From Podarcis gaigeae (lineage: Eukaryota), in assembly GCA_964106915.2 (NCBI GenBank), contig OZ066924.1: DNA of 64,000 bases. One strand, written 5' to 3'. The position numbers and the translations under genes were made by a program. Of this stretch, positions 7,530-35,922 are shown piece by piece. The notes below the pieces were generated by a model that did no database searches, was not told the origin of the DNA, and saw nothing but the letters and a program-made list of their open reading frames with translations. The first letter of the stretch is position 1. Every line of letters begins with the position of its first letter.

Positions 7530-8061
7530 TAGAAAATAAATAGGAGCTATTCCAATGTGATGGAAAACGTAACTTGTTCATCTTCCATGTATACATTTTG
7601 GACATTCAGAACATACTTACTCAGTAATCAGTGGAAATGTTAGGTGGGTGAAATTGGTCAACTCAAGGTGATGTTGGTATCCGAGCTCTTTAACTCAATG
7701 AGCTTTTCCTGCATATGGGAAGGATTCAAAGATGTGCTAATATAGGTATGGTTTCTGTGATCTGAAGACTGCCATACAACAGAAGGTAGCCTTTGGTTTT
7801 CAGCTGCTTAGGCCACACATAGGGCAAATATTACCTTCGTTGATTTTAGACAAGCCTTTGCCAATCTGGTGCCCCCAGATGTTTGGTACCACGACTCACA
7901 TCAGCTTGGGAGGGCCTGCAAAGGCAGCTTTAGACCCAAAGAGGGACATTTGTGTTGAAACATGTTGCTTGATTCCATCTTCTGTTGGAATCAACAATAA
8001 GAAAATACAATGGAGAGAAGACGTTGAGGTGGCTGTCTAATGTTAACCTATTTCCCCTCCA

Positions 8062-8262
8062 AATAAATAAAAAAATTGTCCAGTAGCACTTTAGAGACCA
8101 GCTATGTATGTTCTGGGCATGCACACAAGAAGGTATCTGAAGAAGTGTGCACACACAGGAAAGCTTATATCCAGAACATACTTAGTTGGTCTCTAAGGTG
8201 CTACTGCACAATTTTTTAATTTATTTCGACTGCGTCAGATCACTACAGCTACCTACCTGAAT
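8062..8262 (+). mobile_element. Very short PLE insertion (inverted pLTR pair only) with hammerhead motif, LOX intron 3
   Basis: Same family as the 14.7-kb element (TAGTTGGTCTCTAAGGTGCTACTG terminus). Inverted arms about 8071-8116 and 8171-8217. Motif GTAT-CTGAAGAAGTGTGC...GAAAGCTTATAT at about 8133-8170. 14-bp TSD CTATTTCCCCTCCA at 8048-8061 and 8263-8276. Confidence 0.85.
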
Positions 8263-12812: not shown

Positions 12813-12819
12813 GTATTAA
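12813..12819 (+). CDS. LOX: Lysyl oxidase exon 7 coding part (P-Y-stop), followed by 3' UTR
   Basis: Pyrimidine tract cttcttttctctttaatag|GTATTAA gives CC+G TAT TAA, the canonical ...ISPY* end. Exon lengths sum to 1269 nt in frame. Confidence 0.92.
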
Positions 12820-14704
12820 GATGAAAGAAAATTTATGCAACGGTGCCCAAGGTTTTGAGGTGAAATTATTTTATAAACTTGAGACAGGATGTAAAAACTT
12901 TTGAAAGCGAAAACGGAAAAAGGACCAGAGTATATACAAAAAGAATTTTAATGACTCTGAAGCATTAAGACCTCCTTCAGAATGAATGTTGTCACTCAAT
13001 TCATGTGTTCAACTTTTTGAGGACAGTGAAAGATTGGTGCTTTATATACAGTATTTCAAATTCTACAGGAAGTTTTAACCCATTCACAGAAATGCCTTTT
13101 CTCTGACTACTGGAAAATCAGTATGCTATTTGTGAATGAGCTTAAGGAACAATTTAAAGGATATTCAAAGAGGCTGAGATTCAATGAGTTACTTTAGGTT
13201 CATATATGCCCAATGGAATCTTACACATTTTACTTAAATGTGTTAAAAAAAAATCAACAGACTCCAACCCCTCCATATCAAAACTATGCTTTTTACATTT
13301 TCATTTTCTTTGGAGGTTTATTGCTATGTGGCAAGTGGCCAGGGCAGTGGTGTCCAAAGGGTCATGTAACTAATTTCACAATTATTTGGTCTGCAGCCAT
13401 ATAAGAAATACTGAGAGTAAGGAGGAGGAGGAAAAATCAGTGGTCATGGGGCAAAATCTGGACCAAACTCTGGGGAAATGAAACTTCCAACAGAGCTAAA
13501 CACCCAGCATGATAATTTTCTATCCTTGGGACAAAATGTATTGTTCACTTTTTAAGAACTGTTCATGCTTCATGTATAGCGATGGCTATTCATTACACCT
13601 TTTCAGATGAAAGTATTTGCATTTTAGACATATTAGCGGGCAAGTATCTTCTTAAACCAGATGCCTATTGATATTTTGACAAGCCATTTTTTCAGAAGAA
13701 ATATGAAATAGTGAATTACCCATTTCCAATGTTTGCTTCCGATTGCTTTGCACATTTTCTTCTTTTTTTTTCCGTACAGCTCTAAAGATTTTAAATTACG
13801 ATTATTTAGAAACTCTTCTCCCTTAATAGAATTTGAGTAACCTGGATTAAAGCTGATCTATACACTCGGCAGAAAAAAATAAGTCTATTTACAAAGGTGC
13901 AAACTTTAATTGGTTAAAAAAAAAGGTTAGGAGTAATATAGTTTGGTAGCCTCACCAAACAAGGCTTATAAGACCGATTCACAAGGAGCTAATGGATGTT
14001 CTCCATGAATACTATGTTTTAAACCTTGTAGGCAGTCAGAAAGAATGAAGGTTTTTTTAGTATAAAAAAACCATACTAGCAGGATATTCAGTAGGCTGCA
14101 TACTAAATAATGCAGTACTGTATTATATGATAATACCTGCCATATGCAGGATTCCACAGGCAAACTTGTAAATAATTCAAGTGAAGAAAATCATAACTCC
14201 AAATTGAAAATTGGTTGTTAGAGGTAGAAGAATCATTCCTCCTTTGGCTAAAGTGAAATAGAAGGGTTTCTCCACCTCCCAAAACTGTGAAATAATTTCT
14301 AGCAGATGGGAGTCTTCCTTCCCACTACTAGCTTGCTGAAAGGCCCTATAAATATTCAGTTGTTGGCCATGCTCTTTAGCTGTTAGAACTAAAACTTGAC
14401 GCTCAAGCTCCTCCACTTTTAGTACTACAATTTATTTTGCAAATTTAAACAAAAATTTGTCATCCACACCACTGTCTGTCCAGGCTGACAAGACCTGCTT
14501 CTGCCTATTTTGCTTGCCAATGCCTTCCCCTTAGCTTGGATAGCTCTGGTGGATGTTGAAATCACCAGTCCTACCATGTGTAATATGTCCAGTATCACAC
14601 ATGAACACAACCAACACCCTTTCATACGTCAACAACAATTGCTATCCACATGATAAAAAAATTCCTTCCAGTAGCACCTTAGAGACCAACTAAGTTTGTT
14701 ATTG

Positions 14705-14742
14705 GTATGAGCTTTCGTGTGCATGCACACTTCTTCAGATAC
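14705..14742 (-). ncRNA. Minimal type I hammerhead ribozyme (intact) in PLE pseudo-LTR
   Basis: Minus strand GUAU-CUGAAGA-A-GUGUGC AU GCACAC-GAAA-GC-UC^-AUAC: full core, stem II, palindromic AGCU stem III, 4-bp stem I. Confidence 0.85.
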
Positions 14743-15350
14743 ACTGAAACAGAAGTCACCAGACCCTTATATGGGGAGGGGTATTACTCAGAAGGGTGGT
14801 GGGAATAACACCATTACTGGCCCCAACAACATCAAACATACCATCTCGGGACTCTTTAATTGCTCATCTTCTAACATTGTGTATGCCATCAAATGCCAAC
14901 AGTGCCCTTCAGTTCTCTATATTGGACAAACAGGCCAAACCCTACGCCAAAGGATAAATGGACATAAATCGGACATCAGGAATTACAAGACAGAGAAACC
15001 AGTAGGAGAACACTTCAGTCTCCCAGGACATTCTATACAAGATCTCAAAGGAGCTGTCTTATTACAAAAGAATTTCAGAAATAGACTGGAAAGAGAACTT
15101 GCTGAATTGCAACTTAATACCAAACTTAAAACCATGGAGAGACCTGGTCTGAATTGAGACATTGGATTCTTATCTCATTATACATGATGAAGCCATCTCA
15201 CCTCTTGCTTTTTCCTATAAGACCAATTGCAGTCATTAACAGTTGTCAACAGGTCTACCACACCTATCAACCCATTCCCACTACCCTTCTGAGTAATACC
15301 CCTCCCCACCCTCTAACTATATATAGGGGTCTGGTGACTTCCGTTTCAGT

Positions 15351-15388
15351 GCATCTGAAGAAGTGTGCATGCACAGGAAAGCTCACAC
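15351..15388 (+). ncRNA. Minimal hammerhead ribozyme (degenerate) in PLE pseudo-LTR
   Basis: GCAU-CUGAAGA-A-GUGUGCAUGCACAG-GAAA-GC-UC-ACAC: core kept, but stem I has two mismatches and the stem II closing pair is G.G. Confidence 0.7.
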
Positions 15389-18150
15389 CAATAACAAACT
15401 TAGTTGGTCTCTAAGGTGCTACTGGAAGGAATTTTTTAATTTTTTCCCCCCAACTACGACAGACCAATACGGCTACCTATCTGTAACTATCCACATGATA
15501 CATGTGTAAGCAGCCTTGCTTGCTTATATGTAGAATTTTTTCTTTCTTTTTAAACATGTTTTAGTAGCAGCAGGAAAAACTGTGGGCTGGTATTGGGGAG
15601 CCAGTGACTAGTGAGAAGAGAAGGGAATCAGGAAAGCTGATGGCATGACGATGGCATCTCAAGGAATAGGGCCGAGCAACTTCGTAGGACCACTATCCCA
15701 CATTTAGCAGCTTTTCCAGTTACAAAATTGTGTTTTCATTTATTGGAGGGAAGCAGGTTATCTGCTGTTACATATGATGTGAACTGGAATATCTGACACT
15801 TTGGGATTCAGACCTCAGCCAAGATTCACTTTGCCAAGATCAGTTCTAACAAAGAAAGGTACTAATTCATGAAGATTCATGGCAGCTTGGAAGATTTTCT
15901 TGTGGTTTTTGGAACACACGAGGAATTAATGGGCTACATCTTTTTGCGAGAAACTAATCCTTTTCCCTTCCAGCTGCATGACACAGAGATAGATTTTCTT
16001 CACTTTTTTTGGCAGGCCCTTATTCGGACTATAGCACAGAAAATGTTTCTAATTCAAATATTTCACATTTAGATGAAAGGGATTTTAAGGGTAAACTGAT
16101 TTCCCCCCCAGTCACCCTTTTTGTACCTCCCCATAGGTTTAGTTGGAGATAACTGAAGTACTATACGCTTACAAGTGGTCTACCCTGTGCCTTGCATCAA
16201 AAACATCATTTTCACATTCCAGATACTACAAAGGTGCTTACATATTTTAACTTGAATTGAAATAAACAGTTTTCTGTCAGGAAATTTATAAGCAACCAAA
16301 TGTTACAAATTTAGTGAAGAGCCACTCTAACTTCTTGCAAGGAATTCTAATATTTACTTCATTATTTTTTTCAAAGAGCCTTGCTTTTAAAATCTTTGCA
16401 TCTTTCTCTGAGAAGTTATTTATAATTATTCATACACTAGCTTTGTTTTCTTCATTGCACTTCCATATTCTTGTTTAATTCTTGTATCGTGGTTGCAGAT
16501 TTATGTGAAAATGACCTGAATAAATTTGTTTTTCAAATGCTCAGAACGTCTCTCCAGCTTTCACCAAAATCTTTCTTACAGGTTAAGAGGAATCTCTATA
16601 TACATGATTGTATCATTCTTCTGTATGGGGGAAGCATTTCATTCTCTAAAAAATACAAACGTGATACTTCAGATGCAAACCTTAGATAATTTTGTAGTTA
16701 CCCTGCGAGGGAAAGGAGGGTCAACCTAAGAGAGCTAAAGGAGTTTACAGAAGTCATCACACATGGATGAGGAAAATTATATAAGCAGAAAGTTTGCTAA
16801 TCCTAATAGCTAACAGACCATATCGAGCTTGGAGAACAGACTATAACAGGGCTGCCTCTACTTTTCAGAGGGAAAGCTTGTAAAAATGCTACTAATTATG
16901 CATTATGACAAGATTATTATGGGACAAAGCTCATAGGATAAAAATAACAGTGATGTTCATGCCACAAGACTAGCCAGATAGTCAATGGGTCTTCAATAGG
17001 CTAGTTTATTGTCCTGTATCACCATTTTAGTAAGCCTGTCTGGAAACTTACTTTGAGTTCAAATGTATCCTTGAGTTCAGAATGTTTCTATTTCTACAAA
17101 ATGCGATACAGTATAAGACAGACTTTTGTATCAATACAGTATGACCACAATGGAATCCTAGTCCTCCATGCGCCCAAAACGCCGCTAAACAAAAACATTC
17201 AATAATGTATTTTAAGGTTGCTAGATTTTACTTCTATATTGGTGCTTTTCAACTGGTGCTACGTCTCTGTATGTCTTGCAGTTTTAAAAACACTGGTTTA
17301 TCTGAATAGAAGAAAACAAGAGATGTGATTTACATTCACCTGGTATTGCCCTCCTATGTAGACAAAGTCTACATAGCTCGTTCCTTAGATCAAAAGCTTT
17401 GCTGTAAATCCAGCACTTTTAAAAATGCTTTGATGTGCTAGACACCCCATAGGAATACTGCTAGGGTCATAAGTTATAGCAGTAAGAAATTCTCTCCTGT
17501 TCATCAATTGCCAAGAAAAACTAAGCACTCTTGGCAGTCCAGAGACATGTAAAGAGATGCTACCCAAGCTATGAAGTTTTCAAGTTTCTCTATTTTCAAC
17601 TAAAACAGGAAAAGGCGTTATCTTATTACTTTGTATGTAGTGTGCAAGTTTTCTTTAGCCATTCACAACTTGTTTTTACCCAATGGAAAGATGTTTATCA
17701 ACTAGAGAGATTCAGGGCATGTTGTGTAGTTGTAAATTTAGGAAAATGAGAGACTAAATAATAAAGGGATAGGAAACCCTATTATTGGGCTAGCATTAAC
17801 TTATGTAATATTTTTCTCTCCAACATGCATGTAAAATGGGGAAAGGCTTTTAAAGCAGTGGAGCCACTAATAGTTACAGCTTGTTAAGACGTAGCTTGAA
17901 TCCCAAGAGTAATGAAGGACCATATGAAAATAATTTCTTTTGGATGTAAAAGACAAATCCTGCAGTATTATAAGCAAACAGCTACACCCTACTTTTTCAA
18001 TTAATGCACTCTAGATAACCAAAAGAATTAACTGATCTGAAAATAGATGACATTCAATTCAGTCAAATGCCCTTCTAATCTCAGAATATCAAGACACAAA
18101 TGAATGAAACCATTGGACAGTATAGATACAAATTTCTGACTTTAACAGAT

Positions 18151-19972: not shown

Positions 19973-19978
19973 TTTATT
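19973..19978 (-). terminator. Likely SRFBP1 polyadenylation signal (AATAAA)
   Basis: TTTATT on + strand about 135 nt after the stop, followed on the - strand by GT/T-rich sequence. Confidence 0.6.
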
Positions 19979-20110
19979 TTATATATTAGTTATATTGGAA
20001 ATCTATAAATGAAATGTCTGTTTTTAGCTTATACAGCTGTGTCAACAAGCTGTCAACAGATGAGATAAAAAAGGAGGAAAAGAAGAGAGTCCTTAAGAAA
20101 TAACACCCCC

Positions 20111-20289
20111 TTAGTCTTCAAATTTAATTTTTTTCCCTTGGAATGCTGTAATTTGAGATACTTGCTCTCGACGTTTCCTGCTTGCCTCCCAGGAAGGATG
20201 AAGTGGCTGCTCCAATTGTTCTCTCTTAATACCTTGCTTCATACTCAAACCTTTGAACATCTGTTTCTGTGAACCGTTTCTTTCAAAAC
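20111..20289 (-). CDS. SRFBP1: SRFBP1 exon 8, coding part to stop
   Basis: gtgcag|GTTTTGAA...; ends with the BUD22-family motif [14 protein letters not shown]...[11 protein letters not shown]. Confidence 0.95.
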
Positions 20290-24260: not shown

Positions 24261-24462
24261 ATTTAAACAGGGAAAGCAGGTAGAGAAAAAGGGGGCTCCA
24301 CATCGCCATCTGGTGGCACAATGTTATATCGCACACCCAACACATATAAATCACTTTTTTTTTTACCCGTCTAGCTGAGTCCTATGTCTGCTATAGGATA
24401 TAGGAAGCCTTCTCACCCACACAATTTGGATTCTACATCCAGTTCACTGAACCATGCACCAA
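24261..24462. repeat. Donor copy of a 202-bp inverted duplication (contains CTCF motif)
   Basis: Exact reverse complement of 25332-25533; it does not resemble a recognisable transposon. Confidence 0.92.
24301..24319 (-). promoter_or_regulatory. Candidate CTCF site
   Basis: Minus strand GTGCCACCAGATGGCGATG, a close match to the CTCF core consensus CCAC/GYAGRKGGCRS. Confidence 0.65.
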
Positions 24463-25331: not shown

Positions 25332-25533
25332 TTGGTGCATGGTTCAGTGAACTGGATGTAGAATCCAAATTGTGTGGGTGAGAAGGCTTCCTATATCCTA
25401 TAGCAGACATAGGACTCAGCTAGACGGGTAAAAAAAAAAGTGATTTATATGTGTTGGGTGTGCGATATAACATTGTGCCACCAGATGGCGATGTGGAGCC
25501 CCCTTTTTCTCTACCTGCTTTCCCTGTTTAAAT
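25332..25533. repeat. Inserted inverted copy of 24261-24462, flanked by a 35-bp direct duplication
   Basis: TTACTTTTGCAATAGTATTTACTATTGCAAATACT occurs at 25295-25329 and again at 25539-25573. Confidence 0.92.
25475..25493 (+). promoter_or_regulatory. Candidate CTCF site (duplicated copy)
   Basis: GTGCCACCAGATGGCGATG on + strand. Confidence 0.65.
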
Positions 25534-34989: not shown

Positions 34990-35922
34990 CTTTCGTAGAT
35001 TTTCACGGGTACAGGAATGCAGGTTTTGGTGTCCTCGGGTGTCTTCCCGTGTAAAAGTTGGGGTGTCTAGGCGACGTTTCGACGAGGTCTCACTCGTCAT
35101 CTTCAGGCTGGTGCTTTCGGCTTCTTGTTACTGGAACAGAGCGGGATCTCAATGTTTGAGTTCCTATAAATACTGTAGAGGGGGTGTGGTGTCTAGCCTC
35201 CAATGTTCTGGGCAGAGAGGAAGTTCCCAGGCTAGTGTGCCTTTTCTTCTTTTGTTCCTTAATTACTTGAGAGATACCTTGAGTGATTTCTTGAGTGAAA
35301 ACTGACACCAGATCCAGAGGCACACAGAACGCCAACACCAATCAACCACACCAGACCCAAACCCAGACCCTCTCCACAGATGAATTACTGACACCATCCA
35401 GTAGCCAATCCATGGTGGCACCTCCGGATGCTGCACCCCCCTGCAATCCCTACACAGATCTGGCTGACACAAGCCACAAAACCACAGCTCGCCCCTATAC
35501 ACGAAGCCAAGCCAAAGCACAACTAAGTGCAATACAGCCATCTTCTCAGGAAAACTCTTCACAAAGTTCAAGAGGTCAAGACACAAAGACTTTAGCAACT
35601 AATCCACACCTAATGACCCACCTAAGTGGTACTCAGGATATCACTCAAGAAATCACTCAAGGTATCTCTCAAGTAATTAAGGAACAAAAGAAGAAAAGGC
35701 ACACTAGCCTGGGAACTTCCTCTCTGCCCAGAACATTGGAGGCTAGACACCACACCCCCTCTACAGTATTTATAGGAACTCAAACATTGAGATCCCGCTC
35801 TGTTCCAGTAACAAGAAGCCGAAAGCACCAGCCTGAAGATGACGAGTGAGACCTCGTCGAAACGTCGCCTAGACACCCCAACTTTTACACGGGAAGACAC
35901 CCGAGGACACCAAAACCTGCAT
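34987..35922. mobile_element. Second-family Penelope-like insertion with 282-bp perfect inverted pLTRs, within a (TA)n microsatellite
   Basis: 35017-35298 is the exact reverse complement of 35641-35922 (the ORF track shows mirrored identical peptides). Each arm carries a hammerhead core. (TA)n lies on both sides. No RT or EN coding sequence was recognised, so the PLE call rests on architecture. Confidence 0.8.
35831..35868 (+). ncRNA. Minimal hammerhead ribozyme motif (mirror copy at about 35071-35108 on - strand)
   Basis: GC-CUGAAGA-U-GACGAG UGAGAC CUCGUC-GAAA-CG-UC^-GC: core, 6-bp stem II and palindromic ACGU stem III; stem I is short (2 clear bp). Confidence 0.75.

What the first reader, a model, noticed from the sequence alone, without database searches (positions are those of the whole stretch)
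14642..15500. Penelope element with hammerhead ribozymes apparently inside the LOX 3' UTR; sense ribozyme broken, antisense intact
Seen: a GIY-YIG PLE fragment with inverted pLTRs and a 14-bp TSD sits 1.8 kb after the LOX stop, upstream of AATAAA signals (16261, 16519) and distal miR-29 sites (17240-17261). The - strand hammerhead (14705-14742) has all stems paired. The + strand copy (15351-15388), which would be in LOX mRNA, differs at three positions, each breaking a pair (two in stem I, one closing stem II). I count about six substitutions plus one indel between the arms overall. Established: PLE pLTRs carry minimal hammerheads that cleave best as dimers. Inference: an active sense ribozyme would cut off the polyA tail, so its decay may reflect selection. 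Caveats: numbers are small, and the 8.1-kb copy shares the stem II C>G change, so it may be a family variant.
Basis: partly seen in the sequence, partly recalled or inferred. Interest (0 to 1): 0.7.

Follow-up and report, generated by a model that had tools for sequence, protein, structure and literature searches.

The report
Penelope fold-back in lysyl oxidase UTR
A broken piece of a very common jumping gene sits in what is likely the tail of the lysyl oxidase messenger RNA; its small self-cutting-RNA motif carries three mutations, but it is predicted to be locked in a long hairpin anyway, so the damage is likely ordinary drift rather than selection.

Summary
The anatomy is as described: a 5'-truncated, Neptune-type Penelope copy with an inverted arm, exact 14-bp TSD and two minimal hammerheads, the sense one with three pair-breaking changes. 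Spliced contigs from four studies of close relatives run from LOX exon 6 into the element, resume after it and fade near AATAAA 16519, so the UTR likely spans it; the distal miR-29 sites likely lie beyond the main end. The selection reading is not supported. The genome holds 16,694 such motifs, 1,596 with exactly three changes. The sense arm is no more changed inside the ribozyme than outside it (p=0.45). Most possible changes break the motif, and one would suffice. In the mRNA the motif is predicted to be paired with the upstream mirror arm (probability 0.92), and published minimal hammerheads do not cut alone. The changes are private, not a family variant. The statistical oddity is the pristine antisense arm (0 of 151), likely chance. 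The likely real effect is a ~150-bp double-stranded hairpin, a probable ADAR target. This scan has reported the same kind of element many times on other DNA.

The parts
12813..12819 (+). LOX last coding exon start and stop codon (G TAT TAA)
   Evidence: spliced joint 10590>12813 GT..AG in 4 of 4 runs; Lysyl_oxidase Pfam hit on an upstream exon
12820..16560 (+). Likely main LOX 3' UTR, about 3.7 kb including the 845-bp insertion; end approximate
14642..14655 (+). Left target-site duplication, 14 bp
14656..14807 (-). Inverted, tail-less pLTR arm; 0 of 151 positions differ from the family majority; 13-nt deletion near 14772
14705..14742 (-). Minimal type I hammerhead, family-majority sequence; predicted cut after 14709; antisense to LOX
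14807..15157 (+). C-terminal GIY-YIG endonuclease fragment of the PLE ORF (CCHH pattern), ending in a private premature TGA at 15155
15274..15440 (+). 3' pLTR arm, sense to LOX; carries all substitutions between the arms (15282, 15326, 15342, 15352, 15376, 15386, 15438) plus 15315
15351..15388 (+). Minimal hammerhead with stem I and G10.1-C11.1 broken; catalytic core letters intact; would cut after 15384
15441..15486 (+). PLE 'tail' extension, present at this end only; four substitutions and a C run against the family majority
15487..15500 (+). Right target-site duplication, 14 bp
16261..16266 (+). AATAAA, possible minor poly(A) signal
   Evidence: X13 contig ends 16323
16519..16524 (+). AATAAA, likely main LOX poly(A) signal
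   Evidence: X1 and X2 contigs end 16541 and 16593
17240..17261 (+). Two miR-29 seed matches, likely outside the main isoform
   Evidence: depth 0-4.9 there, like introns; seed identity recalled
19973..20113 (-). 3' end of the convergent neighbour (SRFBP1, name recalled from peptide motifs): stop 20113-20111, AATAAA 19978-19973, 5.2 kb before the intact hammerhead

Best explanation
This is one truncated, fold-back copy of an abundant Neptune-type Penelope retroelement that likely lies in the LOX 3' UTR, and its sense hammerhead likely decayed by neutral drift because it is predicted to be paired with the upstream mirror arm and so unable to cut. Shown: the TSD, the two arms, the GIY-YIG fragment, the three private changes, and about 17,000 family motifs in the genome. 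Shown in relatives, inferred for this species: the mRNA runs through the element to a poly(A) site near 16.55 kb, and the insertion predates the split from relatives 2-3% diverged. Predicted: in LOX RNA the antisense arm is made first and captures the sense arm in a ~150-bp duplex, about 65 kcal/mol more stable than the hammerhead fold. From print: such motifs need a dimer partner or the element's protein. Inferred: no cleavage, so no selection on the motif; the copy's likely effect on LOX mRNA is a long double-stranded hairpin that ADAR would edit.
For: Inverted 5'-truncated arm plus a one-sided tail is the standard PLE insertion form (PMC8557442); 48 other inverted pairs turned up among 186 other fetched loci. 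Genome counts: 9,021 exact, 15,098 with up to 2 and 16,694 with up to 3 changes, so 46% carry a change and 1,596 (9.6%) carry three. Among 31 motifs in loci picked by ORF likeness, not by ribozyme state, 18 have at least one change and 5 at least three; the rate inside the motif (4.2%) equals the rate outside (4.1%). No enrichment in the LOX sense motif (p=0.45) and the right arm matches the interior (p=0.66). Of 48 pairs, 19 have one intact and one changed motif, 4 have 0 against 3 or more; tailed and untailed arms carry 53 and 49 private changes in 46 pairs. Fold: mean pairing of the sense motif with the other arm 0.92, stem I and II probability under 0.0001, forced hammerhead costs 66.7 kcal/mol; on the minus strand, where the motif is intact, 0.97 and 64.0. 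Monomeric min-HHR gave no detectable cleavage, dimers low (PMC4209133); the Anolis PAc HHR cut only with protein and no RNA-seq reads began or ended at its site (PMC11167929). Penelope is named as the massively A-to-I edited repeat in lizard, over 40,000 sites (PMC5625713). Contig depth in relatives is not lower after the element (22.9 to 26.5, 22.9 to 36.4, 48 to 65, 121 to 188).
Against: All differences between the arms are derived on the sense side (0:6, p=0.03; 0:7, p=0.016), the most lopsided of 49 pairs over the 110-nt span compared (next 4:0 and 4:1). The left arm is 0 of 151 from the family majority against 19 of 465 in the interior (p=0.006; p=0.045 counting only 12 fully private changes). 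Two of the four 0-versus-3+ pairs (L080, L119) are short or junction-adjacent alignments. 99 of the loci were chosen because one motif was exact, which lowers their apparent decay. No contig spans the whole element, all RNA evidence is from relatives, and the state of their sense motif could not be read. Folding is an equilibrium prediction; ADAR unwinding or proteins could free the motif.
Confidence: 0.78

Rival explanations
1. One reading: an active sense hammerhead cut the poly(A) tail off LOX mRNA, so an inactivating change was favoured.
For: Element likely in the UTR; three private changes, all disruptive, one at the conserved G10.1-C11.1 pair (PMC4209133); all arm differences on the sense side (p=0.03). 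About 12,000 family cores could supply a dimer partner or protein in trans (inference).
Against: No enrichment in the motif (p=0.45); only the first hit could be selected; core untouched; disruption is the outcome of 72-84% of changes; predicted lock by the mirror arm; no cleavage as monomer or without protein; an intact hammerhead of another family lies sense to the neighbour gene's pre-mRNA at 35 kb, though young and intronic.
Confidence: 0.08
2. The antisense arm is the part under purifying selection, either as the lock that silences the sense ribozyme or as a minus-strand ribozyme that stops read-through from the convergent SRFBP1 gene before it reaches LOX exons.
For: Left arm 0 of 151 from the family majority while the rest is about 4%; only 1 of 34 and 1 of 23 sampled arms are unchanged over 110 nt, likely the same copy; SRFBP1 ends 5.2 kb away on that strand.
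Against: The arm has a 13-nt deletion; on the minus strand the intact motif is also predicted locked (0.97); no abundant contigs between 16.7 and 18.1 kb; in organism A one contig shows 13 other letters and a gap over 14398-14736 where two others show 10 over 14398-14681 and stop there, a hint that the left arm has changed in that species (positions not shown); a lock would tolerate a few changes.
Confidence: 0.06
3. Selection acted on the hairpin, not the ribozyme: mismatches were favoured because they shorten a long perfect duplex that would trigger dsRNA sensors or retention.
For: The changes cut the ~150-bp duplex into runs of at most 51 and a 13-nt bulge; three give A-C mismatches; lizard Penelope copies are heavily edited.
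Against: Total arm divergence is what age predicts; this would not favour one arm; perfect 202- and 282-nt inverted pairs persist in neighbouring introns.
Confidence: 0.05
4. In this species most LOX transcripts end before the element, so neither motif is in the mRNA.
For: An ATTAAA lies at 13846; no RNA run of this species was laid and no contig crosses the whole element.
Against: In four studies of relatives the exon-junction contig or its neighbours reach the element and cover resumes at equal or higher depth to about 16.5 kb; the 16519 signal is intact here.
Confidence: 0.03

Closest known systems
Neptune-clade EN+ Penelope-like elements (Craig et al. 2021, PMC8557442; passages seen)
   Same: C-terminal GIY-YIG with CCHH pattern, CX4CX2C linker in longer family copies, 5' truncation, adjacent inverted copy, tail at one end only, hammerhead in the pLTR.
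   Different: This copy has lost RT and the linker; clade placement was not tested by an RT tree, so Nematis is excluded only by its not being reported in vertebrates (10.64898/2026.07.22.740005).
Minimal type I hammerheads of metazoan PLEs (Cervera and de la Pena 2014, PMC4209133; parts 1-2 of 4 read)
   Same: 4-bp helix I, long helix II, extra base between A9 and G10.1, G10.1-C11.1, palindromic 15.2-16.2; motif pairs on opposite strands 100-700 bp apart are described there.
   Different: Here one copy is in an mRNA UTR and has lost stem I and G10.1-C11.1; this family's motif was not compared with their supplementary alignments.
PAc Poseidon element of Anolis carolinensis (Frangieh et al. 2024, PMC11167929; passages and section 3 part 2)
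   Same: Lizard PLE with pLTR hammerhead and tail; ribozyme inactive without the element's protein.
   Different: Poseidon clade, different motif; full-length and active.
Clec2 3' UTR hammerhead of rodents (as reviewed in PMC6155905; passages)
   Same: A hammerhead in an amniote 3' UTR.
   Different: That one is a conserved discontinuous type III motif regarded as co-opted; this is a minimal type I passenger, decayed and predicted to be locked.
Inverted-repeat dsRNA in UTRs edited by ADAR (Porath et al. 2017, PMC5625713; passages; inverted Alu analogy recalled)
   Same: Long fold-back from a mobile element in non-coding mRNA; Penelope is the main edited repeat in lizard.
   Different: Editing at this locus was not shown; contigs cannot show it.

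Membership tests
EN+ Penelope-like elements | C-terminal GIY-YIG endonuclease with CCHH pattern | tested here: met
   PF01541 E 1e-5 above cutoff; C..C..H..H visible in the translation
EN+ Penelope-like elements | PLE-type reverse transcriptase upstream of EN | not tested
   Absent from this truncated copy; not sought in longer copies
EN+ Penelope-like elements | pLTR, often with adjacent inverted 5'-truncated copy and a 30-40 bp tail at one end | tested here: met
   Arms 14656-14807 and 15274-15440, tail 15441-15486; tail on one arm only in 46 of 48 other pairs
EN+ Penelope-like elements | Dispersed multicopy family with target-site duplication | tested here: met
   14-bp TSD; 16,694 motif matches
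Neptune clade | CX2-5CxxC zinc-finger linker between RT and EN (shared with Nematis) | tested here: met
   Present in 27 of 45 family hits read upstream of the junction; the other 18 are truncated, inverted, mutated or frame-shifted there. Cut off in this copy.
Neptune clade | Placement in the Neptune branch of an RT tree | not tested
   No RT recovered, no reference set at hand
Minimal type I hammerhead | Core CUGANGA and GAAA..UH with H not G | tested here: met
   Both copies
Minimal type I hammerhead | Helix I of 4-5 bp and helix II closed by G10.1-C11.1 | tested here: met
   Met for the minus-strand copy (fold -6.0 kcal/mol)
Minimal type I hammerhead (sense copy) | Helix I of 4-5 bp and helix II closed by G10.1-C11.1 | tested here: not met
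   2 of 4 stem I pairs and G10.1-C11.1 broken; residual fold +3.2 kcal/mol
Minimal type I hammerhead | Self-cleavage as a dimer or with protein help | not testable with these tools
   Needs an assay; no same-strand partner in the element; predicted locked
Rfam hammerhead families | Score at or above gathering threshold | tested here: not met
   0 matches in the window
Co-opted UTR ribozymes (Clec2 type) | Intact, conserved, sense-strand motif that cleaves the mRNA | tested here: not met
   Sense motif broken here; conservation in relatives unreadable

The most novel reading that the evidence does not exclude
The fold-back is not neutral: after landing in the LOX 3' UTR its sense ribozyme was knocked out and its antisense arm has been held unchanged by selection, as a lock on the ribozyme or as a cleavage signal that halts read-through from the convergent SRFBP1 gene. 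This would be the first sign that PLE minimal hammerheads cut host RNA in cells.
Probability: 0.07. Interest if true: 0.65.

Novelty: new member of a known kind. Interest (0 to 1): 0.17.

Why it matters
As it stands it is an ordinary retroelement relic. Its modest value: a fixed ~150-bp hairpin in the UTR of a conserved matrix gene, shared by several related species, is a convenient natural reporter for ADAR editing, and a family of about 17,000 near-identical hammerheads on both strands offers real power for the open question of whether PLE minimal hammerheads ever cut host RNA in vivo. This single locus cannot answer that. If the selection reading were true it would be the first evidence that such motifs are active in cells and cost the host.

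Tried and rejected
Rfam scan: no hit. 'C>G is a family variant': rejected, 36 of 12,005 exact 29-mers; the 8.1-kb copy is an older, far more diverged relic (27 of 179 positions), so the shared change is likely coincidence at a CpG. Reading the sense motif in relatives: inconclusive; of 4 runs laid on 15240-15600, even X19, the closest DNA run, showed no contig with this copy's private letter at 15326, so contigs drop such variants or that individual lacks them. No RNA holder was on record as RNA; the four runs used are guessed RNA, supported by their exon-exon joint. I laid 4 and 4 of 24 listed runs (6 different). Lack of cover beyond 16.7 kb is a weak hint only. An unbiased anchor-based pattern sample could not be run; mismatch counts and fetched loci were used instead. 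Gene conversion between the arms: rejected, it would make them alike. Conversion of the left arm from another copy: unlikely, donors carry their own 2-3% changes. ADAR or APOBEC scarring of the right arm before insertion: rejected, mixed spectrum (3 T>C, C>T, A>G, C>A, C>G, T>A). Systematic faster decay of tailed arms: rejected, 53 against 49. Editing excess in contigs: none visible, A>G 18-29 against T>C 15-30, uninformative. Literature: no paper on orientation-dependent selection on retroelement hammerheads in UTRs; no LOX UTR paper of use; library is open-licence only and no supplements were read (those of PMC4209133 may list this reptile motif). No look-alike earlier findings by sequence or in relatives. 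One search was a bacterial promoter scan on two bases and carries no information.
Full report
Observation. The described anatomy is real. An exact 14-bp duplication lies at 14642-14655 and 15487-15500; the arms 14653-14807 and 15274-15440 differ by 7 substitutions and a 13-nt gap. The interior encodes a GIY-YIG fragment (PF01541, E 1e-5). The LOX stop is TAA at 12817-12819. The minus-strand motif 14742-14705 has the layout of a metazoan PLE minimal hammerhead: 4-bp stem I, CUGAAGA, an extra A, a 6-bp stem II closed by G10.1-C11.1, GAAA and a palindromic AGCU (PMC4209133, parts 1-2 of 4 read). The plus copy differs at 15352, 15376 and 15386, breaking two stem I pairs and G10.1-C11.1; its residual fold is +3.2 kcal/mol against -6.0. 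Rfam has no hit at gathering score.

What the element is. Longer relatives carry CX4CX2C just upstream of the endonuclease (27 of 45 hits), the linker of Neptune and Nematis PLEs; a 5'-truncated body with an adjacent inverted copy and a tail at one end is the standard insertion form (PMC8557442, passages). No RT tree was built. The family is abundant: 9,021 exact 38-nt motifs, 15,098 within two changes, 16,694 within three. Among 186 other fetched loci I found 48 inverted pairs like this one, 46 with the tail on one arm only. That the host is a lizard is taken from earlier scan notes and my recall of the repeat landscape, not from a call of mine.

Is it in the mRNA? I laid four guessed-RNA contig sets from four studies of two relatives, 2-3% diverged. 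All four show the GT..AG joint 10590>12813. In X1 and X2 the same contig runs on into the element (to 14681 and 14736). Cover resumes from inside the right arm or just after it (X2 from 15410, X13 from 15448) and ends at 16541, 16593, 16473 and 16323; beyond 16682 depth is 0-5.5, as in introns (0-7.7). So the UTR likely spans the element and ends after AATAAA 16519, and the insertion is shared with relatives. The distal miR-29 seeds (17240, 17254) are likely outside the main isoform; a proximal seed at 13035 is inside. Limits: no contig crosses the whole element, contigs cannot fix an end, and none is from a recorded RNA run of this species.

Are the changes a family variant? No. The exact 29-mer occurs 11,969 times with C and 36 times with G. 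Against the majority of 86-88 family hits every interior difference is derived in the right arm, and the three changes make up 0, 0 and 1 of 83 changes in 194 other motifs, leaving out the 30 loci picked for likeness to the right arm. They are private, post-insertion changes.

Is the decay more than drift? Five results say no. (1) The right arm has 3 changes in the 38-nt motif and 9 in the other 175 nt (Fisher p=0.45; 6 and p=0.20 if three commonly shared sites are dropped), and it is as diverged as the interior (8 of 165 against 19 of 465, p=0.66). (2) Genome-wide, 46% of motifs within three changes carry at least one and 9.6% carry three; in 31 motifs from loci picked by ORF likeness, 18 have one or more and 5 have three or more, with equal rates inside and outside the motif. 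At this element's 2.6-4.1% divergence, three or more changes have probability 0.08-0.21 and at least one 0.63-0.79. (3) 'Each breaks a pair' is the default: 96 of 114 possible single changes, and 81 of 112 seen in other copies, hit a pair, the core or a palindrome. (4) Selection to silence a ribozyme needs one hit; later hits are neutral, and none touches the catalytic core (inference). (5) One intact and one changed motif is common: 19 of 48 pairs, 4 with 0 against 3 or more, two of these four from short alignments.

Mechanism. In LOX RNA the antisense arm is transcribed first. The 941-nt region folds at -371.4 kcal/mol (z -23) with the sense motif paired to the mirror arm (mean probability 0.92; stems I and II under 0.0001); forcing the hammerhead costs 66.7 kcal/mol. 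The minus strand, where the motif is intact, gives 0.97 and 64.0, so an intact motif is predicted to be locked too. In print, a single min-HHR gave no detectable cleavage and dimers cut weakly (PMC4209133); the Anolis PAc motif cut only with the element's protein and no RNA-seq reads began or ended at its site (PMC11167929); 8 of 9 Xenopus retrozyme dimers did not cleave (10.64898/2026.07.22.740005, passages). There is no same-strand partner in the element. So the premise of an active sense ribozyme is weak. What the insertion likely adds to the mRNA is a ~150-bp duplex, longest unbroken run 51 bp. Penelope is reported as the massively edited repeat in lizard, over 40,000 sites (PMC5625713, passages), so ADAR editing here is likely but not shown.

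What stays odd. The outlier is the antisense arm: 0 of 151 positions differ from the family majority, against about 4% elsewhere (p=0.006 to 0.045), and the 0:5 split over 110 nt is the most lopsided of 49 pairs. Only about 3-4% of sampled arms are unchanged over 110 nt. With thousands of fold-backs and after-the-fact choice such cases must occur; tailed and untailed arms do not differ overall (53 against 49). One contig of organism A hints at changes in this arm there. The convergent gene (SRFBP1, named from recalled peptide motifs) ends 5.2 kb away on that strand, which keeps a read-through terminator idea alive at low odds; no abundant contigs lie between the two genes. My attempt to read either motif in relatives failed its positive control.

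Comparison and verdict. It works like, and by the tested features is, an EN+ Penelope-like insertion, likely Neptune; the minus-strand motif is a minimal type I hammerhead by anatomy, the sense one a decayed copy. It is unlike the conserved Clec2 UTR ribozyme (PMC6155905, passages). Searches found no paper on orientation-dependent selection of such motifs in UTRs; supplements were not read. Earlier scan notes describe the same kind of element and the same antisense lock on other DNA; they are unchecked and were used as leads only. Best reading: neutral decay of a locked passenger, 0.78; selection against cleavage 0.08; selection on the antisense arm 0.06; selection on duplex length 0.05; not in the mRNA 0.03. 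Interest 0.17.

Noticed in passing
window 35017-35922: Young insertion with perfect 282-nt inverted arms in a (TA)n tract, carrying a different hammerhead (CUGAAGA..stem..GAAACGUC) intact on both strands, inside an SRFBP1 intron (between exons near 31.4 and 43.8 kb): an intact motif sense to a pre-mRNA.
   Followed up: partly
window 24261-24462 and 25332-25533: Perfect 202-nt inverted pair 869 nt apart in an SRFBP1 intron; the full 202 nt was found only here, its first ~125 nt is an old repeat at about 90% identity. Looks like a recent local inverted duplication or inversion with staggered ends.
   Followed up: partly
window 8058-8250: Older, small fold-back relic of a related family in a LOX intron, 27 of 179 positions from the young family's majority; its sense motif shares the C>G change.
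   Followed up: partly
window 14398: Contigs of organisms A and B carry about 110-140 extra letters at this point of the LOX UTR that the window lacks (table 8): a lineage-specific indel 250 nt before the element.
   Followed up: no
window 13035-13042: A proximal miR-29 seed match inside the main UTR, upstream of the element (seed recalled).
   Followed up: no
window 14707/15386, 14741/15352, 14751/15342: Three of the arm differences make A-C mismatches in the predicted mRNA duplex, a context ADAR is known (recalled) to favour.
   Followed up: no
G000:C1 150 kb-9.1 Mb (L061-L159): Copies there belong to younger subfamilies whose two arms share 3-8 differences from this locus's subfamily, so both arms of an insertion normally come from one template.
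   Followed up: partly
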